DNA from: Candidatus Aceula lacicola
GTDB taxonomy: Bacteria > Omnitrophota > Gorgyraeia > Zapsychrales > Aceulaceae
Direction of reading: 5' to 3'
NCBI GenBank assembly: GCA_030765785.1
Contig: JAVCCC010000050.1
Span: 3,629-67,628, forward strand
DNA length: 64,000 nt
Positions 5,217 to 61,395 of the stretch are shown here, piece by piece. The notes beneath the pieces were generated by a model. It ran no database searches and was not told the origin of the DNA. It saw nothing but the letters and a program-made list of their open reading frames with translations. The position numbers and the translations under genes were made by a program. Numbering within the stretch: the stretch's first letter is position 1; the number at the start of each line of letters is the position of its first letter.

Positions 5217-6527
5217 TTAATGGTTTAATAATTTATTTGATAAATATTCCTTCAAACTATCCACGGAAATGCGCTCTTGCGCCATCGTATCTCGGTCCCG
5301 CACCGTTACCTTCTTATCGCTTAAAGAATCTACATCAACTGTTACACAGAAAAATGTTCCCACTTCATCTTGTCGTCTATAAAGTTTCCCGATTGAAGCT
5401 GTGTCATCATATACCGACATAAAACATTTAGATAAATCTTTTTTAATCGCCTTTGCCGTTGAAACAATCTCTGAATTTTTCTTCAAAAGTGGCAATACCG
5501 CAACTTTAATCGGAGCCAACTCTGGACTAAATTTTAAAACAACACGTGTCGAACCTCTAACCTCTTCCTCGCAATAGGCGTCTACTAAAAACGCAAGTGT
5601 TGCACGATCAACGCCTCCGGAAGGTTCAATAATATATGGAAAAAATTTTGTGTTGGTGAGATTGTCTTGATACTGGAGATCTTTTCCTGAAGCCTTGGAG
5701 TGCTGCTTTAAATCAAAATCCGTTCGATTAGCAATGCCTTCAAGCTCTGACCAGCCAAACGGAAATTGATATTCAATATCCGTACATCCTTTGGCATAAT
5801 GCGCTAGCTCATCTGACGCATGTTTTCTAAGACGAAGTGATTCTTTTTTGATACCTAAATCAACATACCAAGCAAAGCGTTCTTCAATCCATTGTTTATG
5901 ACTCTCATCAGCTTCTTCTGGTTTTGTGAAATATTCTATCTCCATTTGTTCAAATTCTCGAGTTCTAAAAATAAAATTGCCTGGAGTAATTTCATTACGA
6001 AATGATTTTCCAATTTGAGCAATGCCAAAAGGAAGACGTTTACGCGTCGTATCAACGACATTAGAAAAATTAACAAAAATGCCTTGCGCTGTCTCAGGAC
6101 GAAGATAACTCAAGCTGCTGCTGTCCTCGGCTGCTCCCAGATATGTTTTCATCATCAAATTAAATGCTCGGCCGTCTGTAAAATCGATTGCTCCACATTC
6201 GGGACATTTTTCACCAACATGATCTTTTCGAAAACGCTTCTTGCAAGATTTGCAATCCACCAAAATATCCGAGAAACCCTCAACGTGGCCAGATGCTTTC
6301 CATGCATCCGGATGCATTAAAATACCACAATCGAGACCCACTACATCATCGCGACTGTGAACAACAGACTTCCACCAGGCATTCTTGACATTTCTTTTAA
6401 GTTCAGCACCCAAAGGACCGTAATCCCAAACACTGCTTAAACCACCGTAAATTTCGGAAGACTGAAAGACAAATCCTCTGCGCTTGCACAGAGACACTAT
6501 TTTTTCCATTAAGTTATCTTGAGACAT
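5217..6527 (-). CDS. glyQS: glycine--tRNA ligase (dimeric alpha2 type)
   Basis: 436 aa with an N-terminus (MEKIVSLCKRRGFVFQSSEIYGG) and class II motifs typical of GlyQS. Confidence 0.93.
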   Translation of the reverse strand: MSQDNLMEKIVSLCKRRGFVFQSSEIYGGLSSVWDYGPLGAELKRNVKNAWWKSVVHSRDDVVGLDCGILMHPDAWKASGHVEGFSDILVDCKSCKKRFRKDHVGEKCPECGAIDFTDGRAFNLMMKTYLGAAEDSSSLSYLRPETAQGIFVNFSNVVDTTRKRLPFGIAQIGKSFRNEITPGNFIFRTREFEQMEIEYFTKPEEADESHKQWIEERFAWYVDLGIKKESLRLRKHASDELAHYAKGCTDIEYQFPFGWSELEGIANRTDFDLKQHSKASGKDLQYQDNLTNTKFFPYIIEPSGGVDRATLAFLVDAYCEEEVRGSTRVVLKFSPELAPIKVAVLPLLKKNSEIVSTAKAIKKDLSKCFMSVYDDTASIGKLYRRQDEVGTFFCVTVDVDSLSDKKVTVRDRDTMAQERISVDSLKEYLSNKLLNH

Positions 6528-11914: not shown

Positions 11915-12685
11915 TTATTTTCCAAAAACCTTTTCGGCATTCTGATTTAAAAGATTAGCTGCTTTTTCTAAATCAATATTTTTTATCTCACTTAAAAATC
12001 CCAATGTCTTAAAAACATCTTTTGGTTCAGATTGGAATCCACCGTCTTCAACTCTAAAAAAAACAGGCGTGTCGGTTTCAATCAAAATTTGGTCCATCGG
12101 CGCAAATTCAATGGCAGCTCTTAACTCTTTGCTATATCCAAGCGCTGGCGTTGCAGAAATAAAATAACCTTTATTCAAAATATTTTTTAGAGCATCTTCT
12201 GGCCCACTGTACCAATGAAAAACAGCTCTCTCAACATTCTTTTCTTCGGCAATCGAAAAACATTCTTTCCAAGCACCGCGACTATGAATCACAATTGGCA
12301 TTTCAAATTCTTGAGCCAAATCTATCTGACGCGTAAAAATTTCTTTTTGTTTCTTTTTTTCTTCATCATCTTTACGAACCCATTGATACCAAAAATCTAA
12401 ACCTGTCTCGCCAATCGCTACAATATCTGACTTATGATCTCTAATAAATTCAAACGTTTCTTCTATTTCCTTATCAGAAATATTGCCGGGATGAATGCCA
12501 AATGCAAGGCGAATATCCATATCCGAAAACTTTTGCTTAATCTCTAAATTCTTTTTATTTGAAGCTAAATCAACGCCCTGCGCAACAATTGTGCTTACAC
12601 CTGCTTGCTTGGCCCGCGTTAAAGCAGCGGTAATATCCTCAACATCATTCAAATGTGCGTGTGTGTCAATTAATTTAAAACTCAT
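11915..12685 (-). CDS. tatD: TatD-family metal-dependent hydrolase (DNase)
   Basis: [10 protein letters not shown] at the N-terminus plus conserved His/Asp/Glu positions; 256 aa. Confidence 0.9.
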
Positions 12686-13122
12686 TTGCTGTCCAATACA
12701 AAAGTCACCGGTCCATCATTAATCAAAGACACGTCCATCATCGCACGAAAAACGCCTGTTTCAACTTTACATCCTTTTTTACGCAAAGCTTCAACAAATG
12801 CTTCATAAAGCTCTTCGGCTTTCTTTGGATCTGCTGCCTTATCAAACGAAGGGCGTCTTCCTTTTTTACAATCCGCTAAAAGAGTAAATTGCGAAACCAC
12901 CAAAAATTTACCTTTAACATCTACAATCGAAGCATTCATCTTACCTTCAGAATCTTCAAAAATCCTTAAATCAATAAGCTTGCTTACAAGATATTCGATA
13001 TCATCAAATCCGTCATCTTTAGCAATAGCCAGCAAAATCAAGATTCCTTGACCAATTTGCCCTACAACTTCCCCCGAAACAATGACAGCTGATTTCTTAA
13101 CGCGCTGTATAACAATTTTCAT
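12682..13122 (-). CDS. dtd: D-aminoacyl-tRNA deacylase
   Basis: 146 aa with MKIVIQRV... and the SQFTL motif. Confidence 0.92.
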
Positions 13123-13217
13123 AAATACTTTTTATTTAATATTGATATTATTAGTAGATTATAGATTACACGCTCAATAAAATCAACATAAGAAAAAACA
13201 AACTCCCAAGGACTTAT

Positions 13218-13246
13218 TTGACACCCAAAATCTTTTGTGTTACAAA
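13218..13246 (+). promoter_or_regulatory. sigma-70-like promoter (TTGACA-N17-TACAAA) for the helicase gene, leaving a near-leaderless mRNA
   Basis: TTGACA at 13218-13223, then a 17-nt spacer, then TACAAA at 13241-13246. The ATG at 13259 is about 6 nt past the predicted transcription start and has no SD. Confidence 0.45.
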
Positions 13247-13258
13247 TAATGCCAATCT

Positions 13259-15436
13259 ATGAACGTTCAAACAACATTAAAAAAATACAAATTTCCCTCA
13301 GAATTCATTAATGCCATCACCTCCTCTGGTATTAAAGAGTTTTATCCGCCACAAGCGCAAGCCATTAAAAGCGGTGCTCTCGATGGCGAAAATATGCTTT
13401 TAGCCATTCCGACAGCCGCCGGAAAAACTTTGATTGCAGAGCTTTGCATGATCAAAGCGATTATCCAATCGAATGGCCGCTGCCTTTATATCGCACCTTT
13501 AAAAGCATTAGCCAGCGAAAAATATGAAGAATTCAAAAAAAAATACAGCCCCCTTGGCATTAAAGTTGGCATCGCCATTGGAGATTTAGATAGTCCCAGC
13601 AGACGTCTCAATCAATACCAAATCATCATTGCCACCGCTGAAAAAGTAGACTCACTTCTGCGTTCTCGCGCCAAATGGCTCATTGACAACTTGTCTGTTG
13701 TTGTTTTAGACGAAATTCATTTTATCAATGACGCCTCCCGTGGGCCAACCCTGGAAATTTTAACGGCTCGAATTAAACAACTAAACCCCGATTCACAAAT
13801 TTTGGCATTAAGCGCAACTATTAAAAATGCCGATGAAATAGCCAAATGGCTGGACGCAAAATTCGTGCAAAGTACGTGGCGCCCCGTACCATTAAAAGAA
13901 GGCGTTTATTTTGGAGAGCAAATCACATTTAAAAACGGAGGCCGACGCCTCATTAAAGAAGAACTCCCAGATGACTTAAGCAAAATTGCACTCGACACTC
14001 TACGATCAAAAGGTCAAATTCTTGTATTTGTTGGCAGTCGACGCTCAGCTCAAGCCTCAAGCCTACTTTTATGCAAAGCTGTCGGTCAAATCTTAAGCCC
14101 AGATGAAAAAAAGAAATTAAAAACCATTTCTAAAGGTATTTTAACAGGAAGCGGCGAATCAACAAAAATCTGCAAAAAACTAGCCAATGTCGTCCAAAAT
14201 GGCGTTGCGTTTCATCATGCAGGACTTAGGCCTCATCAGCGAAAACTTATTGAAGAAAATTTTAAACAAAACACTATCAAAATTATCTGTTCAACGCCAA
14301 CGTTAGCCGCAGGAGTTAATCTTCCTGCACGTCGCACTATCTTGCGCGACACCAAGCGCTACCAAGCAGGTCTTGGCGCCACGTATATCCCTGCCAGCGA
14401 ATACAAGCAATGTGCCGGACGTGCCGGACGACCTGGTTATGACGAATATGGCGAAGCTGTTATTATTGCCAAATCTCTATCCGAGTCCCATTTATTATTT
14501 GACCGCTATATCAATGCCGAACCTGATCCCGTCATCTCAAAGCTGGGAAACGAATCCGCACTTCGAATGCACGTTTTGGCAGCAATTTCGGCGGGACATG
14601 TCCATGATATCAATGAAATGTTTGAATTTATTTCACACACGTTTCTGGCACATCAAAGACAGACAACACATTTGATTGAAATGATTTCAGAAATCTTTGC
14701 ATTCTTAGAAGAAGAACAACTCGTTGAAAAAAGTGGTTTTCGTTATTTTGCCACTGCCTTTGGTCATTGCGTCAGTCGACTTTATATTGATCCGATCACA
14801 GGAATCGTACTTCGTGATGGACTTAAAAAAGTCAATGACAACAAAGCACCTTTGACGATTATCGGACTTTTACATTTAATTTGTTGCTGCCCAGATACAG
14901 AGAGAACCGTTAATATCGCAAAATCAATATATGAAGACCTCGAATATTTTGCAGCTGAATATCGCGATGACTTTATCATGACGCGAAACGATGTCGCCGA
15001 ACTTAATGACATGTTTTTTTACTTAACAACGCTTAAAACAACGTGGTTTCTGTCCTGCTGGATTGACGAAGAAAAAGAAGAAAATATCTGCGAAAAATTT
15101 AATATGGGGCCAGGGGATATTCATCGCCACACCGAAAGTGTTCGATGGCTTTTGCACGCCGCCACAGTGATCGCGGAACTTTTTAAATTTAAACGTCTGA
15201 CCTTTGAAACGGAAGATCTTAAAAATCGGGTTCGTTACGGTATTCGCGAAGAATTGCTAGAGCTTGTCTCGCTTAGAGGTGTTGGACGCGTTCGGGCTCG
15301 CAATCTTTTTGAAAAAGGACACAAAAAACTTCGTCATCTTAAATTTGTTTCACTCGATGACCTTTCGAGTGTCGACCAAGTCGGAAAATCATTGGCGAAA
15401 GACATCCTCACACAACTAGAACGCTTTAAAATCTAA
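13259..15436 (+). CDS. Hel308/Ski2-like superfamily-2 DNA helicase (archaeal Hel308/Hjm type)
   Basis: 725 aa with the Hel308-type N-terminus (FYPPQAQAI...LLAIPTAAGKTLIAE), a DEIH box, motif VI (QCAGRAGRPG), and the C-terminal HhH domain 5 (LRGVGRVRARNLFEKG). Confidence 0.88.
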   Translation: MNVQTTLKKYKFPSEFINAITSSGIKEFYPPQAQAIKSGALDGENMLLAIPTAAGKTLIAELCMIKAIIQSNGRCLYIAPLKALASEKYEEFKKKYSPLGIKVGIAIGDLDSPSRRLNQYQIIIATAEKVDSLLRSRAKWLIDNLSVVVLDEIHFINDASRGPTLEILTARIKQLNPDSQILALSATIKNADEIAKWLDAKFVQSTWRPVPLKEGVYFGEQITFKNGGRRLIKEELPDDLSKIALDTLRSKGQILVFVGSRRSAQASSLLLCKAVGQILSPDEKKKLKTISKGILTGSGESTKICKKLANVVQNGVAFHHAGLRPHQRKLIEENFKQNTIKIICSTPTLAAGVNLPARRTILRDTKRYQAGLGATYIPASEYKQCAGRAGRPGYDEYGEAVIIAKSLSESHLLFDRYINAEPDPVISKLGNESALRMHVLAAISAGHVHDINEMFEFISHTFLAHQRQTTHLIEMISEIFAFLEEEQLVEKSGFRYFATAFGHCVSRLYIDPITGIVLRDGLKKVNDNKAPLTIIGLLHLICCCPDTERTVNIAKSIYEDLEYFAAEYRDDFIMTRNDVAELNDMFFYLTTLKTTWFLSCWIDEEKEENICEKFNMGPGDIHRHTESVRWLLHAATVIAELFKFKRLTFETEDLKNRVRYGIREELLELVSLRGVGRVRARNLFEKGHKKLRHLKFVSLDDLSSVDQVGKSLAKDILTQLERFKI

Positions 15437-15438
15437 AA

Positions 15439-16173
15439 TTACTTTAAATATTTAGCTGCCTTGATGTAACGCTCAAGATGAAAAATAAGAAAATTATTTA
15501 AAATATATTTTAATTCTCTTTTAGTAATAGAATTTAACTTAAGTCTAAGAGCTTTATCCCAAGAACTTCTTTCAATATGAACAAGCGAAGCAATCGTTCC
15601 GCGTGAAATCATCGTCGCCGAATGATCATTAGATCTACAATCTTCACAAATCAACCCCCCTAATTTCATGCTAAAGCGCATGCGTGGCGTTATTTTTTTC
15701 TGACAAACGACACACGAATCTAAAAACGGACGAAATCCAGAAAGCAGTAAAATTTTAATTTGAAAAACATGAACCAATTTATTAATATCGCCTATATGCT
15801 CAAGTGTATTTAAATAATATAACAACAATCGATAAATATCTTTATTTTGTTCTTCGACGGGCATAATCGAATCAATAAGCTCTAAAGAATAGCTTGCCGC
15901 CAAAGTTCTTTTCATATCTTTTCGAATAGGAAAAAAGAATGCTTTTAAATCACATTGACTAATAAGATGTAAATCAGAATTACGGTGGGTATAGTAAACA
16001 ATATCGTTGACGGAAAACTGATCAATATTGCTTCCAAACTTTTTATGATCTTTTCGGATTCCTTTCAGAACCCCCTTGACCTTTCCATACTCTTTTGTAA
16101 AAAATGTTGCAATTCGACTCGTCTCTCTAAAATCAAACGTCTTTAAAACAATGCCTTCAGCTTGTACTATCAT
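15439..16173 (-). CDS. recO: DNA repair protein RecO
   Basis: N-terminal OB fold (GIVLKTFDFRETSRIATFFTKEYGK) and the C-terminal zinc motif CVVC...CEDC. Confidence 0.9.
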   Translation of the reverse strand: MIVQAEGIVLKTFDFRETSRIATFFTKEYGKVKGVLKGIRKDHKKFGSNIDQFSVNDIVYYTHRNSDLHLISQCDLKAFFFPIRKDMKRTLAASYSLELIDSIMPVEEQNKDIYRLLLYYLNTLEHIGDINKLVHVFQIKILLLSGFRPFLDSCVVCQKKITPRMRFSMKLGGLICEDCRSNDHSATMISRGTIASLVHIERSSWDKALRLKLNSITKRELKYILNNFLIFHLERYIKAAKYLK

Positions 16174-22667: not shown

Positions 22668-22691
22668 AATTCAGCGTACGCACGCTGAATT
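22668..22691 (-). terminator. 10-bp perfect hairpin (AATTCAGCGT-ACGC-ACGCTGAATT) overlapping the stop codon of the 1067-aa gene
   Basis: Inverted repeat read directly from the sequence. Downstream minus-strand flank is only moderately U-rich. Confidence 0.35.
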
Positions 22692-25600
22692 AGGGATTCA
22701 CAGACCCCAAAGCTGGCGCATCGCGATAACGATTAACCTTTTTCGTCATAACCGCTGCCTTATCCTCACTTCCCATTTTTTGATACAAAACTGACATGTT
22801 ATGATAAATTTTTATATTATAAGGCAATATTTCTGCTGCTTTTTCATAAATCGCAAGAGCATAATCAGGCTTATTCACGAGCTCGCAATACTTAGCCATA
22901 TTCTCATAAATTAAAAAAAGATGCGGATTGTTAATAAGTAGTACTTCTAAAATATTCATTGCATTAGAAAAATCACCGCTTAAAAAATACGCCTCACTCA
23001 ATTTAAGCCCACTTTCTACTTCTAATCCCTCTTCTTTTATGCCCTGCTCAAAATAACGAATAGCATCTAAATACCGTTGAAATTTTATTAAAGATTGTGC
23101 ATATGCAAAAAGATATTCGGAATTCTTTGGTTCAATCTCAACAGCCTTTTGAAACTGAGCAAGAGCTAGCTTATGCTCACCTTTGAGAGCATAAGCCTTA
23201 GCTAAATAAAAATACGCCTCGGCTGATGGTGTGCCTCTTTTAACATAGTCACTAAAATTCTCAATGGCGCTATCTGGATTATTATTTTTCAGCTGCAAAA
23301 GTCCAAAGTTAAAAACCGCACCAGGATTCTTTTCTTCTAACCCATTTGATACACTTAACTCAAGAATGGCTTTTTCTGCAAATGCATCTTTTTTAAGATA
23401 AGCTCGGGTTAAAGCATTATGAAACGAAACCTTCTCTGGCTTATCCTCTTTCATATTGACTATCTTTGGATAACGTGCATGCCTGTGTTTCTCTACCAAG
23501 GCCTGATTCTTTGCGACAACAGTCTCATAATTATACAAATTTAAAGGAGCAGAATACTCAAGTCGCGGAAAATTATCATTGTTAATATTCGCATCTTCAG
23601 ACATTTTTTTAAGCTCTTTATTAGTCAATAAAAAACAAGATAAGAGGCCCGCGGCACCGCTTATCTTAAACTGAGACAAGTCTTCACTAACTTGCTGATT
23701 ACTTTTTATAATTTGATCAACTCTGCCAAAGTCATAAACTTGCTCGTCGTCAGAACCTATTAAAAGAAAATCTGCCGACGTTGTATTCCAAAGACTGACA
23801 TGTTTAAAAACTGACTGAAACGTCTTTACAATCATCTTTATGTTTTCAGGTGACATACTGTAGGTATTGCACCACTGACACACAATCCCTCCAGACTTAA
23901 GCCGTGATTTCATAAGTTCAAATTGCTCAATAGTAAAAAGATTGGCAACACCCGCCATCCAAGGGCTCGATGGCTCCGAGACAATAACATCATACAGATC
24001 CTTTTCAACCAAAAGATGATTGCGGCCATCGTTAATAAAATTCTTCAATCTTGCATCTTTTAGGACATTCCGATTTTCTTTTAAAAAGAATTCTGCAGCC
24101 TCAACAACGCCTCTCTCAAGCTCAACGCAATGTATTTCGTCGTAAGGATACGCAGCAAGCGCTGCAAGCGTCACTCCACTTCCCATTCCAATAACTAAAG
24201 CCTTTTTAGGAGGTTGCGCTAATAAAAGCGTTGGCAAGTGTCCCAGCATCAGCTGAGTAAACATATCTCCGGAAGAGGCATCAATATTCGAATTAATAGC
24301 AAGCATGATGTTTCCTTGTTTTCTTTTTACCGTCACAATTCCGCTTAAACCTTCCTTATAAAAAAGCATCTCCCTTTGGCCTAGTGAATTTTTTATCTGA
24401 TACTTATTATGTCCAAGATATGCTTGCGGATTAATCGCAATATTTGTCGTTAGAATATTTTTAGACCATCCTTTGGTTAGAGGCAGAAGAAAAAGTACGG
24501 CTAAAACAAGACACGCAGGGGCAATCATTTTTTTTCTGAACAATATCTTTTCAGAGCCAATCAAAATAGCGACACCCACAAAAAGATTTATACAAATTGC
24601 GACAACTAGGGTTTGCAATATCCCTATCAAAGGAACTAAAATAAAACCTACGGCAAATGAACCAAAAATACATCCCATGGTATTTGCACAATATGCGGAT
24701 CCGACTGTTTTTCCTGTGGTGCGAGCAGATCGATTGAGCAATTGCGTAACAATGGCAAACGTTGCGCCAATAAATATCGTCGGAAGAAGCATGACAAGGC
24801 TGCAAAGAAGAAATCGTCCAAGCTGAAAACCTATTCCAACATCTTTTGTAAAACTAAATAATCTTAAAAAATAAAATGGAATCTCATTAAAAAATCGAAT
24901 GCCGATAAGAACAAAAAACGCTATCGCGAGCTCAACAAAGGCAAAGGTTAAATAATTAATTCTTATCCGCTTTGACAGCCACCCGATCACAAGGCTCCCC
25001 AACGCCAAACCTATCAAGAATGTTGCCAACATAATGGCAAATGAATAAACCGAGCTCCCCAAACAAAGAGCAAGAATCTTTGTCCAGCAAATCTCGTACG
25101 CCATTGATGTGAATCCTGAGAGCCCAAAACCCAAAAACAATAATAGGATGAGGTGTTCTTCGCAAAGCCGATTATTATTCTTTTCTGCACCAACAGGCTC
25201 TAGAGAGACCCTCTCTTGCTCATCCGATGTCTGCCAAATATTTTGAGCAGAAAAAGACTGCACCCCTTTTTTAAATAAAAAAAGTGATGCAATTCCTATC
25301 ACAATATTAATCGCCGCTGCAATAAAAACGGTTGATTTTAACCCGAAATAATATATGGCAAAAAAACTGCTAAACAGCACGCCAACGCAAGCCCCGAATG
25401 TATTGATACCATAAAGAAATCCCGCATCCTCAGCTGTCCTTTTTGCATTCCTCACCAAAAACTTCATTAAAACAGGTAATGTCCCACCCATTAAGAATGT
25501 TGGAATAAGCATTAAGATAAACGCCATAAAAAAACGAATGAGACTAAACTGAAAAAATGTAGGCGAGGTCTGCTGGTAGATTAAAACATACAAATTCTCA

Positions 25601-25893
25601 ATCAATTTCCAGAGTGCAGGAGTGAAAATACAAAAAACACCTATGCCAATTTCCAAAAGACCATAGATTAAGACCGGGTCCCCTTTTTTATCGATATGCC
25701 TTCCAAAAAAAAAGCTTCCGAGTCCTAGTCCAGCCATAAATGCTGCTAGCACCGTGCTAATGGCAAAAGTTGTGTTTCCAAAAACAAGTCCCAGCATTCT
25801 TAGCCACACAACCTCATAGACAAGGCCACACGCACCAGACAAAAAGAACATCAGGGCGATGACAGAAAAAACGATTTTTGAATTATCTTTCAT
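22690..25893 (-). CDS. fused MFS-like transporter / spermidine synthase-like / TPR-repeat membrane protein
   Basis: 1067 aa built from an N-terminal ~12-TM block, a central aminopropyltransferase-like Rossmann region (KKALVIGMGSGVTLAALAAYPYDEIHCVELE) and a C-terminal run of TPR repeats. Confidence 0.8.
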   Translation of the reverse strand: MKDNSKIVFSVIALMFFLSGACGLVYEVVWLRMLGLVFGNTTFAISTVLAAFMAGLGLGSFFFGRHIDKKGDPVLIYGLLEIGIGVFCIFTPALWKLIENLYVLIYQQTSPTFFQFSLIRFFMAFILMLIPTFLMGGTLPVLMKFLVRNAKRTAEDAGFLYGINTFGACVGVLFSSFFAIYYFGLKSTVFIAAAINIVIGIASLFLFKKGVQSFSAQNIWQTSDEQERVSLEPVGAEKNNNRLCEEHLILLLFLGFGLSGFTSMAYEICWTKILALCLGSSVYSFAIMLATFLIGLALGSLVIGWLSKRIRINYLTFAFVELAIAFFVLIGIRFFNEIPFYFLRLFSFTKDVGIGFQLGRFLLCSLVMLLPTIFIGATFAIVTQLLNRSARTTGKTVGSAYCANTMGCIFGSFAVGFILVPLIGILQTLVVAICINLFVGVAILIGSEKILFRKKMIAPACLVLAVLFLLPLTKGWSKNILTTNIAINPQAYLGHNKYQIKNSLGQREMLFYKEGLSGIVTVKRKQGNIMLAINSNIDASSGDMFTQLMLGHLPTLLLAQPPKKALVIGMGSGVTLAALAAYPYDEIHCVELERGVVEAAEFFLKENRNVLKDARLKNFINDGRNHLLVEKDLYDVIVSEPSSPWMAGVANLFTIEQFELMKSRLKSGGIVCQWCNTYSMSPENIKMIVKTFQSVFKHVSLWNTTSADFLLIGSDDEQVYDFGRVDQIIKSNQQVSEDLSQFKISGAAGLLSCFLLTNKELKKMSEDANINNDNFPRLEYSAPLNLYNYETVVAKNQALVEKHRHARYPKIVNMKEDKPEKVSFHNALTRAYLKKDAFAEKAILELSVSNGLEEKNPGAVFNFGLLQLKNNNPDSAIENFSDYVKRGTPSAEAYFYLAKAYALKGEHKLALAQFQKAVEIEPKNSEYLFAYAQSLIKFQRYLDAIRYFEQGIKEEGLEVESGLKLSEAYFLSGDFSNAMNILEVLLINNPHLFLIYENMAKYCELVNKPDYALAIYEKAAEILPYNIKIYHNMSVLYQKMGSEDKAAVMTKKVNRYRDAPALGSVNP

Positions 25894-50553: not shown

Positions 50554-51022
50554 TTTTTATAATCCTTCCCTCAATGTGATCCGTGATATCCAAAACACCG
50601 TAAGAACGAAACGGTGCAAAGATTGTATCGGTAGCGCTACCTGGATTAAAAAAAAGAACGTTACCTGTTTTCTCATTCATAGGCTGATGCGAATGCCCAA
50701 AAATAATGGCATCGACTTTTTTCCCCTTAAATTCTTTTTTGACACGATCTAATAGAAATCTTGGCGTGCCTTCACCGTGAAACAATCCTATCGAAAATGA
50801 TTCACAATTAATAATTTGGCTTTTCGGCAGGATATTTCTCAAACTCGCTCCATCCATGTTGCCATAAACAGCTTCAACTTTACAAAATTTCTTTAATCCA
50901 TTAAGATCTTCTATCGAACAGAAATCTCCCACATGAATAATGAGATCGACTGTTTTAAGATCATCTAAAACTTCTTTAGATAATGTGCGAGAATGAGTAT
51001 CGGAAAGGACGCCTATTTTCAT
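50540..51022 (-). CDS. YfcE/MJ0936-family metallophosphoesterase
   Basis: MKIGVLSDTHS...HVGDF...GHSHQP motifs; 160 aa. Overlaps HIT by 14 nt. Confidence 0.88.
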   Translation of the reverse strand: MKIGVLSDTHSRTLSKEVLDDLKTVDLIIHVGDFCSIEDLNGLKKFCKVEAVYGNMDGASLRNILPKSQIINCESFSIGLFHGEGTPRFLLDRVKKEFKGKKVDAIIFGHSHQPMNEKTGNVLFFNPGSATDTIFAPFRSYGVLDITDHIEGRIIKIDES

Positions 51023-52647
51023 TTTACAATATAAGGTTTGTCGTACATGTTTAACAATAAATTTATCTCACCCTCACTCCAAATCCATGTCTTTTCTTGA
51101 AGCGCTTTTAGCCGTGCGCTATTTTCCAAATCTTTAAAAGAAATGATAACGCGTCTACGCGGCTTTTGGCTCAATTTCTTTGATTCGCTTAAGAATGCAC
51201 TCACATCGCCTTCGGACAACGGTTCTTCGTTTAGAACGATAAACCATGCCTCATCTGACGAATAAGCCTTGATCACATCCAGATCTCGCTTAGAAGCACT
51301 TCTCATTTTCAATGGCTTGATTTTATAAAAGCACGGTAAACGATATCGTCGACCCTCAAAATTAAACGATTCGTTATCAAAACATTTTAAAAGATCCACA
51401 ATGCGCAAAGACAATTCTTTTTGAGAAACCGATTGGAAGCTCGAAACAGATTCGCTTAATTCGACAGAAAAATGTTGTCTTTGGCGATCGAGGTCGCATC
51501 CAATAGAATTAAGTCTTTTCTGAAAAATATATTTTATCCAATACTTAAACAACTTATCCTTTAAATAATAAAAGCTTGCGCATTTCTCAACAATTCCAAA
51601 CTCAATTAAAATTGACATTTTTTGCAAAATAAAACTTTTTCGAAGATCAGCATTTGCAGCGATGTCCTCTGTTTTGTGATGATGGTTAGCAAGCGCAATC
51701 AAAAGACTACAAACTTCACGGTTATTCTTACCCGGCGATAACTGGCTAATCATAATTTCAAAATGACGACTCAAAACACCCCATTTATCAAAAATTGTAT
51801 TTTCAATGGCTTTGGATAATAGCGGTAAGAAAACTTCAGACTGATTATGGATTAAAGATAAATTCTTGATTTCACGAACGAGAATACTAAGATAAAATGG
51901 ATGACCGCCTGTAAAATCAATTAAAAAGTTTTTCAGATCTCGGCTCATCTGTATGTCGGAAAGGCAATAGCCAATAAAGCTCTGACTTGTTTCCAGTTCA
52001 AATGGGCGAATGTCGACGATCTCAAAGTGACCAAATAAAAGCGATAATTTTTCAGACAAAATTTTTCGGGCAATGTTTTGCATCGAGCTTGCCATCAGAT
52101 ACAGACATCTTTTCTGCGTCATAATGCGTTTGCCTAATTCTTGAAACACATCTGTAATAGCAAGGTCTTCGAGATTATGAAACTCGTCTAAAATAATCAA
52201 ACAAAACATTTTTGATTCTAGCGAAAAAACTTCTGGCAAAGAAATAAGCTGCCGATAGCTCTCCGCAAAACGTTTCTTATCAATATTAGACTGAATTCGC
52301 TTAATCACCTCAATGGTTTGAGGAATTTCCTTCTTTGTCGTTTCCATCAAAAGACTAAGATCGTCATGAAGAGCAAGTTGTTTTGATTTTGCAAAATTAT
52401 ACAAAATGCTTCCAACAAAATTACAGAAAATATATTTAAAATCTTTTTGATCTAGATCCAGATAAATCGTGATCAACTCTGGATCATCCAAATCAGAGAC
52501 AAACTTATGAAGAATAGAAGTTTTCCCAATATGCTGAGGACCTAAAAGTGCGACGTTTTGACGATATCCATCTTTTAGATCAATAACGCGTTTCTTGAGA
52601 ATCGCTAAAGTATTTTTTCGATCAAAAAAAAGTTTCTCTAAATCCAT
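51019..52647 (-). CDS. AAA+ ATPase (archaeal-type ATPase_2 family) with C-terminal DUF234-like domain
   Basis: Walker A LLGPQHIGKTS and Walker B LIILDEFHNL, with a roughly 150-aa C-terminal extension (...DVIKAYSSDEAWFIVLNEEPL...). 542 aa. Overlaps the MPE gene by 4 nt. Confidence 0.65.
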   Translation of the reverse strand: MDLEKLFFDRKNTLAILKKRVIDLKDGYRQNVALLGPQHIGKTSILHKFVSDLDDPELITIYLDLDQKDFKYIFCNFVGSILYNFAKSKQLALHDDLSLLMETTKKEIPQTIEVIKRIQSNIDKKRFAESYRQLISLPEVFSLESKMFCLIILDEFHNLEDLAITDVFQELGKRIMTQKRCLYLMASSMQNIARKILSEKLSLLFGHFEIVDIRPFELETSQSFIGYCLSDIQMSRDLKNFLIDFTGGHPFYLSILVREIKNLSLIHNQSEVFLPLLSKAIENTIFDKWGVLSRHFEIMISQLSPGKNNREVCSLLIALANHHHKTEDIAANADLRKSFILQKMSILIEFGIVEKCASFYYLKDKLFKYWIKYIFQKRLNSIGCDLDRQRQHFSVELSESVSSFQSVSQKELSLRIVDLLKCFDNESFNFEGRRYRLPCFYKIKPLKMRSASKRDLDVIKAYSSDEAWFIVLNEEPLSEGDVSAFLSESKKLSQKPRRRVIISFKDLENSARLKALQEKTWIWSEGEINLLLNMYDKPYIVK

Positions 52648-60893: not shown

Positions 60894-61100
60894 CTAGCTT
60901 TCTGCCAAATCTTTTTTAGATTCTCGAGTCAACAATACTGGAATTCCATTATCGACTAAAAACTTATGCTGACACAAAATACAAACAATTTTTTCTTCTT
61001 CTAATGCAAGCTTACCCTGGCACGCAGGACAAACCAGAATTTCTAGCAACTTTTGATCAATCACCTTTTTCGACTTCTTTCTTAGGCGTTGTTTTGTCAA
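60894..61100 (-). CDS. Trm112-family protein
   Basis: 68 aa with LLEILVCPAC...LVC..C. Confidence 0.8.
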   Translation of the reverse strand: MTKQRLRKKSKKVIDQKLLEILVCPACQGKLALEEEKIVCILCQHKFLVDNGIPVLLTRESKKDLAES

Positions 61101-61395
61101 TATATTTCATTTGAAGCTCATAGATCGAAGTGCTGAGAAGATTTTCTTCTTGAGCCTCTAAATTTCCCTTTGTTTTATCTCGCAACATAGATAGGGTGTC
61201 AATAATAAGCTTGGCCTGAAGAAGATTTTCTTCCTTCTTTTTGGTTACAGGACTCTCGATTTCTCCTAAAAATACCATAACCTGAAACCCTAAGCTCGCA
61301 ACATATGCTAAAAAATCTACCTGAGGCTGATCACTTGTCTTTTGATTATTTTCCATAAATTGTAGAATAACACTGGTTATATCCGTTGTCAACAA
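61057..61395 (-). CDS. DUF1844-like protein
   Basis: 112 aa with the pattern FLAYVASLGFQVMVFLGE...LIIDTLSMLRDKTKGNL. Confidence 0.45.
   Translation of the reverse strand: MLTTDITSVILQFMENNQKTSDQPQVDFLAYVASLGFQVMVFLGEIESPVTKKKEENLLQAKLIIDTLSMLRDKTKGNLEAQEENLLSTSIYELQMKYIDKTTPKKEVEKGD

What the first reader, a model, noticed from the sequence alone, without database searches (positions are those of the whole stretch)
13123..15436. Full-length archaeal-type Hel308 helicase next to recO, possibly on a near-leaderless transcript
The 725-aa protein resembles archaeal Hel308/Hjm from end to end. This includes the characteristic N-terminus, the SF2 motifs, and the C-terminal domain 5 helix-hairpin-helix (LRGVGRVRARNL). 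Hel308-clade helicases are the norm in archaea and patchy in bacteria; SftH-like enzymes are the known bacterial examples. The gene is transcribed divergently from dtd and converges on recO, a recombination mediator. Its predicted promoter (TTGACA-N17-TACAAA) would give an mRNA with only a ~6-nt leader and no Shine-Dalgarno. This may be a laterally acquired replication-fork or recombination repair helicase, or a single-gene defence helicase.
Basis: partly seen in the sequence, partly recalled or inferred. Interest (0 to 1): 0.5.

Follow-up and report, generated by a model that had tools for sequence, protein, structure and literature searches.

The report
Archaeal-type Hel308 helicase, core in Omnitrophota
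This bacterium (Candidatus Aceula lacicola, phylum Omnitrophota) carries a complete archaeal-type Hel308 DNA-repair helicase that was taken from archaea long ago and has since been inherited as an ordinary core gene, apparently made from an mRNA with almost no leader.

Summary
A 725-aa ORF (13259..15436, +) matches archaeal Hel308/Hjm from end to end: all five domains, all SF2 motifs, motif IVa FHHAGL, and the ratchet Arg/Trp. The cited LRGVGRVRARNL contains the conserved domain-5 arginines. It is not Lhr, SftH, RecQ or HamB.

The gene is not a recent or accessory acquisition, and it is not a defence gene.
- Orthologs at 55-86% identity occur in about 60 Omnitrophota species genomes.
- They sit in the same tatD-dtd <> hel308 >< recO-ybeY-7TM_HD-phoH neighbourhood.
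- They co-diverge with the flanking core genes.

In neighbour-joining trees the Omnitrophota clade, together with an Auribacterota-type bacterial clade, is sister to Hadarchaeales/MSBL1 Hel308 with 100% bootstrap support. This indicates one or two ancient archaea-to-PVC-bacteria transfers.

The near-leaderless idea gains strong comparative support. TTGACA-N17-TA(C/G/A)AA(A/C), with a TTTRTG extension, is conserved in 52 of 58 orthologs. It usually ends 7-8 nt before an ATG; in the window the gap is 12 nt. No RNA data exist. Similar arrangements precede other Omnitrophota genes, so this looks like a habit of the lineage.

The most likely function is a 3'-5' DNA translocase/annealase working at stalled forks and recombination intermediates. 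This is a new member of a known kind and of moderate interest.

The parts
13259..15436 (+). hel308 coding sequence, 725 aa plus TAA stop. This is a Hel308/Hjm-type Ski2-like SF2 helicase.
   Evidence: ORF. End-to-end matches to Hjm/Hel308 structures. NCBIfam NF002654 scores 825 bits. AF2 model has pLDDT 86, and the top nine Foldseek PDB hits are Hjm/Hel308 with TM 0.70-0.78.
13218..13223 (+). -35 hexamer TTGACA of the hel308 promoter
   Evidence: TTGAC lies at the same distance from the -10 element in 42 of 52 orthologs that have the -10 element.
13233..13246 (+). Extended -10 element TTTTGTGtTACAAA (TRTG motif plus TACAAA). It ends 12 nt before the ATG.
   Evidence: Conserved as TTTRTGtTA(C/G/A)AA(A/C) in 52 of 58 orthologs. 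One hit in the window against 0.01 expected.
13247..13258 (+). The 12 nt between the -10 element and the start codon (taatgccaatct). No Shine-Dalgarno sequence. The predicted start of transcription is near 13253-13254, giving a 5-6 nt leader.
   Evidence: Sequence. The start-site position is inferred from the usual 6-9 nt distance from a -10 element. In orthologs this gap is mostly 7-8 nt.
13403..13429 (+). Motif I (Walker A), AIPTAAGKT, residues 49-57
   Evidence: Aligned to Hjm/Hel308. P51, T52, A53, G55, K56 and T57 are invariant in 40 Omnitrophota homologs.
13709..13720 (+). Motif II, DEIH, residues 151-154
   Evidence: D151, E152 and H154 invariant.
14210..14227 (+). Motif IVa, FHHAGL, residues 318-323. 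This is the Hel308/HELQ catalytic switch between unwinding and annealing.
   Evidence: Invariant. The role of the motif is described in PMC10484726.
14408..14434 (+). Motif VI, QCAGRAGRP, residues 384-392. Cys385 is specific to the Omnitrophota clade; other Hel308 proteins have Met.
14861..15241 (+). Domain 4 (ratchet domain, PF21280), residues 535-661, including ratchet-helix residues R623 and W630
   Evidence: Pfam. Alignment to A. fulgidus Hel308. R623 and W630 are invariant.
15257..15421 (+). Domain 5, helix-hairpin-helix, residues 667-721. It contains LRGVGRVRARNL (672-683; window 15272-15307).
   Evidence: HHH_5/HHH_2 hits, below their cut-offs. Aligned to GRVRARKL of 2p6r. G676, R677, R679 and R681 are invariant.
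13158..13186 (-). Promoter-like site for the divergent dtd gene (TTGATT-N17-TATAAT). It lies back to back with the hel308 promoter.
   Evidence: 10 of 12 matches. dtd promoters of the same type occur in orthologous spacers.
12682..13122 (-). dtd (D-aminoacyl-tRNA deacylase), the conserved divergent neighbour. This is context, not part of the helicase.
   Evidence: PF02580, 4e-59. Divergent from hel308 in 51 of 55 evaluable loci, and within 400 nt in 40 of them.
15439..16173 (-). recO, the convergent neighbour and last gene of the phoH-7TM_HD-ybeY-recO block. This is context.
   Evidence: RecO_N and RecO_C. Convergent in 40 of 55 loci, and within 400 nt in 16 of them.

Best explanation
The gene encodes a true ortholog of archaeal Hel308/Hjm. 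This is a monomeric, five-domain Ski2-like SF2 enzyme that translocates 3'->5' on single-stranded DNA, opens forked and branched DNA, and can anneal complementary strands.

Its ancestor was transferred from archaea related to Hadarchaeales/MSBL1 into PVC-group bacteria, namely Omnitrophota and an Auribacterota-type lineage. The transfer happened before the sampled Omnitrophota diversified. Since then the gene has been inherited vertically at one chromosomal site, between dtd and the recO operon end.

Its likely role is that of a housekeeping genome-maintenance enzyme. It would process stalled replication forks and recombination intermediates, much as RecQ does in other bacteria.

It is transcribed on its own from a conserved sigma-70-type promoter with an extended -10 element. 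That element ends so close to the ATG that the mRNA is leaderless in most Omnitrophota and has about 5-6 nt of leader here, so translation does not use a Shine-Dalgarno sequence.

What is shown: identity, fold, intact catalytic motifs, phylogenetic position, synteny, and conservation of the promoter motif. What is inferred: the biochemical activities, the in vivo role, the bacterial partners, and the actual 5' end.
For: Identity:
- End-to-end phmmer matches to Hjm 2zj2 (5.6e-147) and to Hel308 2p6r and 2va8. Lhr 5v9x scores 1.8e-16, the SftH-like YprA 6znp 2.2e-18, and HamB 8vx9 4.6e-28.
- Pfam finds the archaeal helicase domain 4.
- NCBIfam Hel308-type models score 497-825 bits, against at most 109 bits for any other family.
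- The AF2 model (pLDDT 86) has Hjm/Hel308 as its nine best PDB matches over about 725 columns, with TM 0.70-0.78.
- All motifs are invariant in 40 homologs, including FHHAGL, R623/W630 and GRxRxR.
- Only six columns and a 4-residue N-terminal extension distinguish the clade from the other Hel308 sequences in the alignment, nearly all of them archaeal.

Evolution:
- About 60 Omnitrophota species genomes hold orthologs at 55-86% identity.
- dtd is divergent in 51 of 55 loci and recO is convergent in 40 of 55.
- The most divergent relative, P0124 (48% identity), still has recO and 7TM-HD downstream.
- Hel308 identity correlates with that of the flanking genes (Spearman 0.42-0.71).
- GC3 skew is -0.41, like other + strand genes.
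- NJ tree 1: the Omnitrophota clade has 86% support and is sister to Hadarchaeota with 99%.
- NJ tree 2 (254 sequences): the group of bacterial clades plus Hadarchaeales/MSBL1 has 100% support.

Expression:
- The promoter motif is conserved in 52 of 58 orthologs. The gap between the -10 element and the ATG is 5-10 nt in 41 of those 52, with a mode of 7-8.
- The full motif lies upstream of hel308 in 40 loci and occurs 9 times elsewhere in 741 kb.
- 56 of 58 start codons are ATG.

Function:
- Hjm and M. thermautotrophicus Hel308 partially complement recQ in E. coli dnaE486 recQ cells (PMC2636818).
- The translocase/annealase model comes from PMC10484726 and PMC13623763.
Against: - No biochemical or RNA data exist for any Omnitrophota Hel308.
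- The protein scores just below the curated cut-off of the best NCBIfam equivalog model (825.4 against 887).
- The known archaeal partners (RPA, PCNA, RadA, Hjc) are not expected in a bacterium. The window protein has no C-terminal tail beyond domain 5, so how it is recruited is unknown.
- The trees are neighbour-joining with a simple distance correction. Monophyly of the bacterial sequences has only 56% support, and the direction of transfer is argued from the near-universal archaeal distribution (PMC10946056), not shown.
- The -10 hexamer lacks the canonical T at its last position (A 32, C 12, G 5, T 3 of 52). For that reason the tool's own promoter scan does not list it.
- In the window the gap to the ATG is 12 nt, not 7-8.
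- How many Omnitrophota lack the gene could not be counted.
Confidence: 0.72

Rival explanations
1. It is a single-gene or two-gene anti-phage defence helicase (Hachiman HamB-like, BrxH-like or similar) that was mobilised into this genome.
For: PADLOC HamB models match at up to 2.8e-54, and PDC-M23B, SngC and BrxHI models match more weakly. PDB HamB 8vx9 scores 4.6e-28. tatD, two genes upstream of hel308 beyond dtd, hits QatD.
Against: The HamB matches cover only the RecA core, in two pieces (for example residues 10-212), at 182 bits. The Hel308 model scores 825 bits over residues 9-722.

There is no HamA/DUF1837 partner, and the neighbours are dtd, tatD, recO, ybeY, a 7TM-HD protein and phoH.

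The gene sits at the same locus in about 60 species and co-diverges with its flanks. Defence genes do not typically behave this way. The QatD hit is ordinary TatD homology.
Confidence: 0.03
2. It is an RNA helicase of the Ski2 type, used in RNA surveillance, ribosome quality control or tRNA metabolism. The conserved neighbours dtd, ybeY and phoH would be functionally linked to it.
For: Ski2-like relatives Brr2, Slh1, Ski2 and Mtr4 are RNA helicases and match the query at 1e-92 to 1e-31. The conserved neighbours include an RNA-linked set: Dtd, the YbeY endoribonuclease and PhoH.
Against: The closest relatives by a wide margin are the Hel308/Hjm DNA helicases. Domain 5 (HhH, with its conserved arginines) is present; this domain distinguishes DNA-acting Hel308 from RNA-acting ASH-Ski2 (PMC10946056).

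The neighbours lie on the opposite strand, divergent or convergent, so they are not co-transcribed with hel308.
Confidence: 0.08
3. It is a recent, lineage-specific lateral acquisition in Aceula, that is, an accessory gene.
For: The gene's GC content (41.5%) is above the window mean (37.9%). Its codon-usage distance ranks second of 51 genes. It is one of only 7 of 69 ORFs on the + strand.
Against: The codon difference is explained by strand. GC3 skew is -0.41, as in the other + strand ORFs, whereas - strand genes average +0.28.

Orthologs, synteny and the promoter are conserved down to 48-55% identity.
Confidence: 0.02
4. The mRNA has a normal leader. On this reading, the conserved TTGACA...TGTTAsAAa block is a regulator's operator or a 5'-UTR element rather than the promoter, and transcription starts further upstream.
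For: The -10 hexamer lacks the usual final T. Positions beyond the standard promoter elements are conserved (TTT before TRTG, T after TG).

In six lineages (L002, L006, L015, L021, L062 and L081) 22-100 nt separate the block from the ATG, so a leader is tolerated.
Against: The block has exactly the geometry of a -35 / 17-nt spacer / TRTG-extended -10 promoter.

The spacer to dtd is only 58-250 nt in most loci and also has to hold the dtd promoter.

The base before the ATG is usually a pyrimidine, and the start codon is ATG in 56 of 58 orthologs. Both fit initiation at or next to the A of the ATG.

No Rfam family matches the region.
Confidence: 0.15

Closest known systems
Archaeal Hel308/Hjm (P. 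furiosus Hjm 2zj2/2zj8; A. fulgidus Hel308 2p6r; S. solfataricus Hel308 2va8)
   Same: The five-domain architecture and length are the same. All SF2 motifs are present, including motif IVa FHHAGL, the ratchet-helix Arg/Trp, and the domain-5 HhH with GRVRAR. Identity is 35-39% over the full length, with TM 0.70-0.78.
   Different: The host is a bacterium with DnaE, UvrB and RecO, so RPA, PCNA, RadA and Hjc partners are not expected. The window protein has no C-terminal PIP-like tail. It has a 4-residue N-terminal extension, and Cys replaces Met in motif VI. It scores slightly below the NCBIfam equivalog cut-off.
Hadarchaeales / MSBL1 Hel308 (nearest archaeal relatives; L059, L063, P0329, P0357, P0411)
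   Same: The window protein is 50-52% identical to Hadarchaeota Hel308. The Auribacterota-type L066 protein is 53-56% identical to Hadarchaeales and 51-52% to MSBL1 Hel308. These archaeal sequences are sister to the bacterial clades, with 99-100% NJ bootstrap support.
   Different: The genomic context is archaeal, with no dtd or recO neighbours. Some archaeal relatives carry an intein with a LAGLIDADG endonuclease (P0122). None of the Omnitrophota sequences examined does.
Bacterial RecQ (functional analogue)
   Same: RecQ is also a 3'-5' SF2 helicase that acts on forks. Archaeal Hjm and Hel308 partially complement recQ in E. coli dnaE486 recQ cells (PMC2636818).
   Different: It is a different family. 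The RecQ models score only 28-40 bits, against cut-offs of 220-1015, and the query has no RQC or HRDC domain.
Bacterial Lhr and SftH/MrfA
   Same: These are SF2 DExH helicases that translocate 3'-5' and take part in DNA repair. Lhr also has a winged-helix domain after the RecA core.
   Different: Only the RecA core matches: Lhr 5v9x at 62.7 bits, YprA/MrfA 6znp at 69 bits, and NCBIfam Lhr PRK09751 at 40 bits against a cut-off of 1496. SftH is defined by a DUF1998 domain (PMC8301817), which is absent here.
Eukaryotic HELQ and the Pol theta helicase domain
   Same: They belong to the same Hel308 clade and share the same core fold. Pol theta helicase matches at E=2.5e-54 by sequence and TM 0.62-0.67 by structure.
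   Different: Identity is only 23-24%. The eukaryotic proteins carry N-terminal regulatory regions or a polymerase fusion (PMC13623763).

Membership tests
Hel308/Hjm helicase family (Ski2-like SF2) | A complete set of SF2 motifs (Q, I, Ia, Ib, II DEIH, III SAT, IV, V, VI) plus the Hel308/HELQ-specific motif IVa F/YHHAGL | tested here: met
   Residue-by-residue alignment to 2zj2 and 2p6r. GKT, DExH, SAT, FHHAGL, TPTLAAGVNLPA and QxAGRAGRP are invariant in 40 homologs. Motif IVa is defined in PMC10484726.
Hel308/Hjm helicase family (Ski2-like SF2) | [quoted passage not shown] | tested here: met
   Pfam finds DEAD, Helicase_C, HTH_61, PF21280 and HHH_5 in that order. The AF2 model (pLDDT 86) aligns over 686-728 columns to Hjm/Hel308 structures, with TM 0.70-0.78.
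Hel308/Hjm helicase family (Ski2-like SF2) | Ratchet-helix Arg and Trp that contact ssDNA, and the arginine-rich domain-5 motif (GRVRAR) | tested here: met
   R623, W630, G676, R677, R679 and R681 are invariant. They align with the corresponding A. fulgidus residues. This is a sequence-level test only.
Hel308/Hjm helicase family (Ski2-like SF2) | Strand-separating beta-hairpin between motifs V and VI | tested here: inconclusive
   The segment is present and aligns with that of 2p6r. However, residues 368-374 are modelled with pLDDT below 50.
Hel308/Hjm helicase family (Ski2-like SF2) | Phylogenetic position inside the Hel308 radiation | tested here: met
   NJ trees place it, with other PVC-group bacterial sequences, as sister to Hadarchaeales/MSBL1 Hel308 at 99-100% bootstrap support. 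This position lies inside a set of 150 best representatives; those that could be named are archaeal apart from one Bipolaricaulota cluster, and most carry no name.
Hel308/Hjm helicase family (Ski2-like SF2) | ssDNA-dependent ATPase, 3'-5' translocation, unwinding of forked DNA, and strand annealing | not testable with these tools
   This needs purified protein.
NCBIfam equivalog models for archaeal Hel308 (NF002654, NF001308, NF040935, NF002251) | Whole-protein score at or above the curated cut-off | tested here: not met
   Scores against cut-offs are 825.4/887, 624.4/1216, 558.5/1200 and 497.3/891. The best model aligns to residues 9-722. The shortfall reflects divergence of a bacterial clade from the archaeal training sets, not a missing domain.
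Lhr (large helicase-related) | Lhr core (RecA1, RecA2, WH and Lhr domain 4), scoring above the Lhr models | tested here: not met
   PRK09751 scores 40 bits against a cut-off of 1496, and PRK13767 scores 72 against 849. PDB Lhr 5v9x scores 62.7 bits on residues 30-361 only.
SftH / MrfA (YprA) | C-terminal DUF1998 (PF09369) domain after the DExH core | tested here: not met
   There is no PF09369 hit. YprA 6znp scores 69 bits on residues 18-262 only. The family definition comes from PMC8301817.
Hachiman HamB | Full-length match to HamB, and an adjacent HamA (DUF1837) gene | tested here: not met
   The best HamB model scores 182 bits, in two partial stretches over the RecA core. The neighbours are dtd and recO.
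RecQ | RecQ core with a zinc-binding/RQC domain (and HRDC), scoring above TIGR00614 | tested here: not met
   TIGR00614 scores 40 bits against a cut-off of 219.8. Pfam finds no RQC or HRDC domain.
Leaderless / near-leaderless bacterial mRNA | A -10 element ending about 5-10 nt before an ATG start codon, with no Shine-Dalgarno sequence | tested here: met
   The gap is 12 nt in the window. It is 5-10 nt in 41 of 52 orthologs that have the element, and the start codon is ATG in 56 of 58. No SD-like 5-mer lies upstream.
Leaderless / near-leaderless bacterial mRNA | Mapped 5' end within a few nucleotides of the start codon | not testable with these tools
   No RNA data were available.

The most novel reading that the evidence does not exclude
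In two PVC-group candidate phyla, Omnitrophota and Auribacterota, an archaeal Hel308 has been wired permanently into bacterial recombination machinery. It would work with SSB, RecO/RecR and RecA in place of RPA, PCNA and RadA, and it may substitute for a missing RecQ or RecG.

On this reading, the acidic-Trp-acidic C-terminal tails seen in many orthologs are newly evolved partner-binding peptides that replaced the archaeal PIP box. That would make these organisms a natural cross-domain transplant experiment for a fork-repair helicase.
Probability: 0.25. Interest if true: 0.6.

Novelty: new member of a known kind. Interest (0 to 1): 0.42.

Why it matters
Hel308/Hjm is treated in the literature as an enzyme of archaea and animals. 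Oyama et al. 2009 call Hjm unique to archaea (PMC2636818). No held paper mentions Hel308 together with Omnitrophota. NCBI labels this protein only as a DEAD/DEAH box helicase.

The analysis here shows that a whole bacterial phylum, and a second PVC-group lineage, keep a catalytically intact Hel308 as a syntenic core gene. That yields a clean, datable archaea-to-bacteria transfer of a genome-maintenance enzyme.

It also poses a testable question: how does Hel308 work without its archaeal partners? The conserved promoter placed 7-8 nt from the ATG offers a ready test case for leaderless expression in an uncultivated phylum.

This is not a new kind of system. The protein itself is conventional.

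Tried and rejected
- Defence reading. PADLOC was scanned with the helicase and three neighbours. Only RecA-core matches to HamB were found, and there is no partner gene. Rejected.
- Recent transfer. The raised GC content and the codon-usage distance (rank 2 of 51) looked suggestive. They are explained by strand-specific third-position skew.
- Functional operon with recO. The genes are convergent, with stop codons 2 nt apart, and in other genomes recO is often 0.4-5.5 kb away. This is treated as a shared location at an operon end, not as a functional unit.
- The tool's promoter scan does not list the hel308 promoter, because it requires a T at the last -10 position. The comparative alignment was used instead.
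- Naming archaeal and bacterial representatives through cluster look-ups. The first call gave useful names: Thorarchaeota, Methanomassiliicoccales and Bipolaricaulota. The second gave almost none and was not repeated.
- Literature searches for Hel308 in Omnitrophota, or for DNA repair in Omnitrophota, found nothing relevant. The Guy & Bolt 2005 paper is not held.
- An Rfam scan of the window found only one tRNA, so there is no known RNA element in the dtd-hel308 spacer.


Full report
**1. Observation**

The window has one long ORF on the + strand at 13259..15436 (ATG start, 725 aa). The finding's start coordinate, 13123, is the first base of the 136-bp spacer to the divergent dtd gene.

- TTGACA at 13218-13223;
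- a 17-nt spacer;
- TACAAA at 13241-13246, preceded by TGTGt, which gives a TRTG-type extended -10 element;
- then 12 nt (taatgccaatct) with no Shine-Dalgarno sequence before the ATG.

The composite pattern TTGACN13TRTGNTANNA occurs once in the 64-kb window on both strands. Dinucleotide-preserving shuffles predict 0.01 occurrences.

dtd (12682..13122, -) and recO (15439..16173, -) are confirmed by Pfam. The hel308 and recO stop codons are 2 nt apart.

**2. What the protein is**

Pfam finds DEAD, Helicase_C, a winged-helix HTH_61 domain, the archaeal helicase domain 4 (PF21280, 1.8e-29) and a C-terminal HhH, in that order.

The four best NCBIfam models are all archaeal Hel308-type equivalogs, scoring 825, 624, 558 and 497 bits. 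No other family exceeds 109 bits. The protein falls just below the curated cut-off of the best model (825.4 against 887).

Against PDB sequences the ranking is as follows:

| PDB chain | Protein | Result |
|---|---|---|
| 2zj2 | P. furiosus Hjm | E=5.6e-147, residues 19-714 |
| 2p6r | A. fulgidus Hel308 | E=1.1e-142 |
| 2va8 | S. solfataricus Hel308 | E=3.2e-134 |
| 5a9f | Pol theta helicase domain | E=2.5e-54 |
| 8vx9 | HamB | E=4.6e-28 |
| 6znp | YprA/MrfA (SftH-like) | E=2.2e-18 |
| 5v9x | Lhr | E=1.8e-16 |

An AlphaFold2 model built on 40 homologs has mean pLDDT 86 and pTM 0.79. Its nine best Foldseek matches in the PDB are all Hjm/Hel308 chains, aligned over 686-728 columns with TM 0.70-0.78.

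Among the 40 Omnitrophota homologs, every catalytic and DNA-contact position I checked is invariant:
- GKT, DExH and SAT;
- FHHAGL (motif IVa);
- TPTLAAGVNLPA;
- QCAGRAGRP;
- the ratchet residues R623 and W630;
- G676, R677, R679 and R681 of LRGVGRVRARNL.

Compared with the other Hel308 sequences in the alignment, nearly all of them archaeal, the clade differs in only six conserved columns and a four-residue N-terminal extension. There are no domain gains or losses.

That is wrong. SftH is defined by a DUF1998 domain and groups with Lhr (PMC8301817). The query has no DUF1998 domain.

**3. Organism and distribution**

The exact protein is recorded for Candidatus Aceula lacicola. This is an Omnitrophota MAG from Ace Lake, Antarctica (PMC8542988). 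NCBI places it in the PVC group. The window also encodes bacterial DnaE and UvrB.

A scan of one genome per species found 283 stretches that encode relatives. Of the 80 best, 63 come from Omnitrophota-type bacterial MAGs at 55-86% identity; many of these are labelled 'uncultured Planctomycetales' by their depositors. Below them come Hadarchaeota (50-52%), one 'Chlamydiota' MAG (47%) and Bathyarchaeia (43-45%).

**4. Core gene or accessory gene**

tblastn of the window's neighbouring proteins against these loci shows a conserved arrangement: tatD-dtd (-), hel308 (+), recO-ybeY-7TM_HD-phoH (-).
- dtd is divergent in 51 of 55 loci with enough upstream sequence. It lies within 400 nt in 40 of them, and the median gap is 174 nt.
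- recO is convergent in 40 of 55 loci, but within 400 nt in only 16.

The most divergent bacterial relative examined is P0124, at 48% identity. It still has recO and the 7TM-HD gene downstream, and a lipid A acyltransferase upstream.

Hel308 identity to the window protein correlates with that of dtd, tatD, recO, ybeY, the 7TM-HD protein and phoH across loci (Spearman 0.42-0.71). Its range (55-86%) resembles that of RecO (47-86%) and PhoH (63-88%).

The gene's somewhat high GC content (41.5% against 37.9%) and unusual codon usage (rank 2 of 51) at first suggested foreign origin. Strand accounts for this. 62 of 69 ORFs lie on the - strand and have third-position GC skew of +0.28. hel308 and the other + strand ORFs have negative skew; hel308's is -0.41.

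I conclude that the gene is a long-resident, vertically inherited core gene of the sampled Omnitrophota.

**5. Where it came from**

The first tree was neighbour-joining, with Kimura-corrected distances and 100 bootstraps, on 173 sequences and 706 columns.
- Omnitrophota form one clade (86% support).
- P0124 joins them (92%), then the 'Chlamydiota' sequence L066 (77%).
- Hadarchaeota are sister to the whole group (99%).

A second protein search, starting from L066, shows that its close relatives (62-87% identity) are labelled Candidatus Aureabacteria. This corresponds to phylum Auribacterota, also in the PVC group. Its next-best hits are Hadarchaeales (53-56%) and MSBL1 archaea (51-52%), ahead of Omnitrophota (48-50%).

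In the enlarged tree (254 sequences, 708 columns):
- the group [Omnitrophota + Auribacterota-type | Hadarchaeales/MSBL1] has 100% support;
- monophyly of the bacterial half has 56% support;
- monophyly of the archaeal half has 61% support.

The best non-Omnitrophota representative, P0122 (52% identity), carries an intein. It sits on a contig with ELP3, AsnC, GTP-PEPCK and a RuBisCO fragment, which looks archaeal.

A Bipolaricaulota/Acetothermia Hel308 cluster (42% identity) falls outside this group, so it represents a separate event.

Hel308 is nearly universal and vertically inherited in Archaea (PMC10946056). The economical reading is therefore one or two ancient archaea-to-bacteria transfers. 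The direction of transfer is inferred, not proven.

**6. The transcript**

The N-terminus is conserved in all orthologs, so the start codon is secure. It is ATG in 56 of 58 orthologs.

Upstream, 52 of 58 orthologs have TGnTAnRAn, and 42 of those also have TTGAC exactly 17 nt before the TA.

A position-frequency table shows TTGACA, a weakly conserved spacer, and then TTT-R-TG-T-TA-(C/G/A)-A-A-(A/C). The T after TG, the TTT and the -35 hexamer were not imposed by my search pattern, yet they are strongly conserved.

The distance from the end of the hexamer to the ATG is 5-10 nt in 41 of the 52, with a mode of 7-8. Established knowledge of sigma-70 promoters puts the start of transcription 6-9 nt after the -10 element. 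On that basis the mRNA would start on or within 1-2 nt of the A of the ATG in most species. In the window it would start about 5-6 nt before it.

In 741 kb of Omnitrophota loci, the full motif lies upstream of hel308 in 40 loci. It occurs 9 times elsewhere, and five of those are the divergent dtd promoter in the same spacer.

Six lineages have 22-100 nt between the motif and the ATG. In L081 the intervening sequence is a palindromic insert.

There are three caveats.
- No RNA data exist.
- The hexamer almost never ends in T (3 of 52), which is unusual for a -10 element. This is why the tool's own promoter scan omits it.
- The arrangement is not unique to hel308. Promoter-like sites ending 5-9 nt before start codons also precede other genes: window 5217-6527, 47174-47758 and 61057-61395, and dtd in L040. 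Many genes in the window lack a strong Shine-Dalgarno sequence. The short leader therefore looks like a habit of the lineage and not a relic of the gene's archaeal origin.

**7. Function (inferred)**

The enzyme is catalytically intact and nearly indistinguishable from characterised Hel308/Hjm. I therefore assign it the same chemistry: ssDNA-dependent ATPase, 3'-5' translocation, unwinding of forked or branched DNA, and strand annealing controlled by motif IVa and domain 5 (PMC10484726; PMC13623763).

Hjm and M. thermautotrophicus Hel308 partially complement recQ in E. coli dnaE486 recQ cells (PMC2636818). This shows that such an enzyme can act on bacterial forks without its archaeal partners.

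The most likely role is RecQ-like processing of stalled forks and control of recombination. How the enzyme is recruited is unknown. The window protein ends directly after domain 5, whereas many orthologs carry a 15-30 residue tail that ends in an acidic-Trp-acidic motif.

The proximity to recO probably reflects insertion at the end of the phoH...recO block and does not indicate a functional unit.

**8. Rival readings**

- The defence reading fails. HamB models match the RecA core only, at 182 bits. There is no HamA gene, the neighbours are housekeeping genes, and the locus is fixed.
- An RNA-helicase role is unlikely. The closest relatives act on DNA, and domain 5, which distinguishes Hel308 from RNA-acting ASH-Ski2, is conserved.
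- Recent transfer is refuted.
- A leadered transcript remains possible, at about 15%.

**9. Verdict**

This is a new member of a known kind: a bona fide Hel308 fixed as a core gene in Omnitrophota and in an Auribacterota-type lineage, after ancient transfer from archaea related to Hadarchaeales/MSBL1. It has a conserved promoter of the leaderless type.

I found no paper that describes this. Interest is moderate. The protein is conventional, but its fixation across a bacterial phylum is a useful and testable case of cross-domain replacement in genome maintenance.

Noticed in passing
Loci L010, L013, L015, L018, L019, L024, L033-L036, L039-L042, L045, L051, L060 (C-termini of the Hel308 orthologs); not present in the window protein: Many Omnitrophota Hel308 orthologs carry a 15-30 residue C-terminal tail that ends in an acidic-Trp-acidic motif (...EVWTD...GNWDD...EEWDD...AEWKD...DGWED). 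Bathyarchaeia relatives end in a PIP-like QKALTEY instead. The tail may be a partner-binding peptide.
   Followed up: no
window 5217-6527 (-), 47174-47758 (-), 61057-61395 (-); L040 dtd; L043; L010: Promoter-like TTGnnn-N17-TAnnnT elements that end only 5-9 nt before the start codon also precede other genes. Leaderless mRNAs may therefore be common in Omnitrophota.
   Followed up: partly
window 13241-13246 and the orthologous sites in L001-L065: The conserved -10 hexamer of hel308 is TA(C/G/A)AA(A/C). Its last position is T in only 3 of 52 orthologs, although dtd promoters in the same spacers are canonical TAnnnT. The reason is unexplained.
   Followed up: partly
whole window: 62 of 69 ORFs are on the - strand, and the GC skew of the + strand is negative throughout. 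hel308 is one of the few genes in the opposite orientation, probably head-on to replication, and this orientation is conserved in orthologous loci.
   Followed up: partly
L081 4411-4545: In the most divergent bacterial relative (P0124), the conserved promoter block is separated from the ATG by about 100 nt. The intervening sequence contains a long inverted repeat (CCCCGTTAGAAAG ... CTTTCTAACGGGG) and looks like a small palindromic insertion.
   Followed up: no
P0137 cluster (Bipolaricaulota/Acetothermia); L066 and P0310-P0328 (Auribacterota-type): At least two further bacterial candidate phyla carry full-length Hel308. The Auribacterota-type clade groups with Omnitrophota and Hadarchaeales, while the Bipolaricaulota cluster lies outside that group.
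   Followed up: partly
L082 8001-11579 (P0122): One of the nearest archaeal relatives has an intein with a LAGLIDADG homing endonuclease inserted in the helicase. None of the bacterial sequences examined has one.
   Followed up: no
window 51019-52647 (-): A 542-aa protein matches PF01637 ('ATPase domain predominantly from Archaea') weakly, at 29 bits against a cut-off of 33.
   Followed up: no
window 22690-25893 (-): A 1067-aa protein combines an MFS transporter domain, a spermidine-synthase-like domain and TPR repeats, which is an unusual fusion.
   Followed up: no
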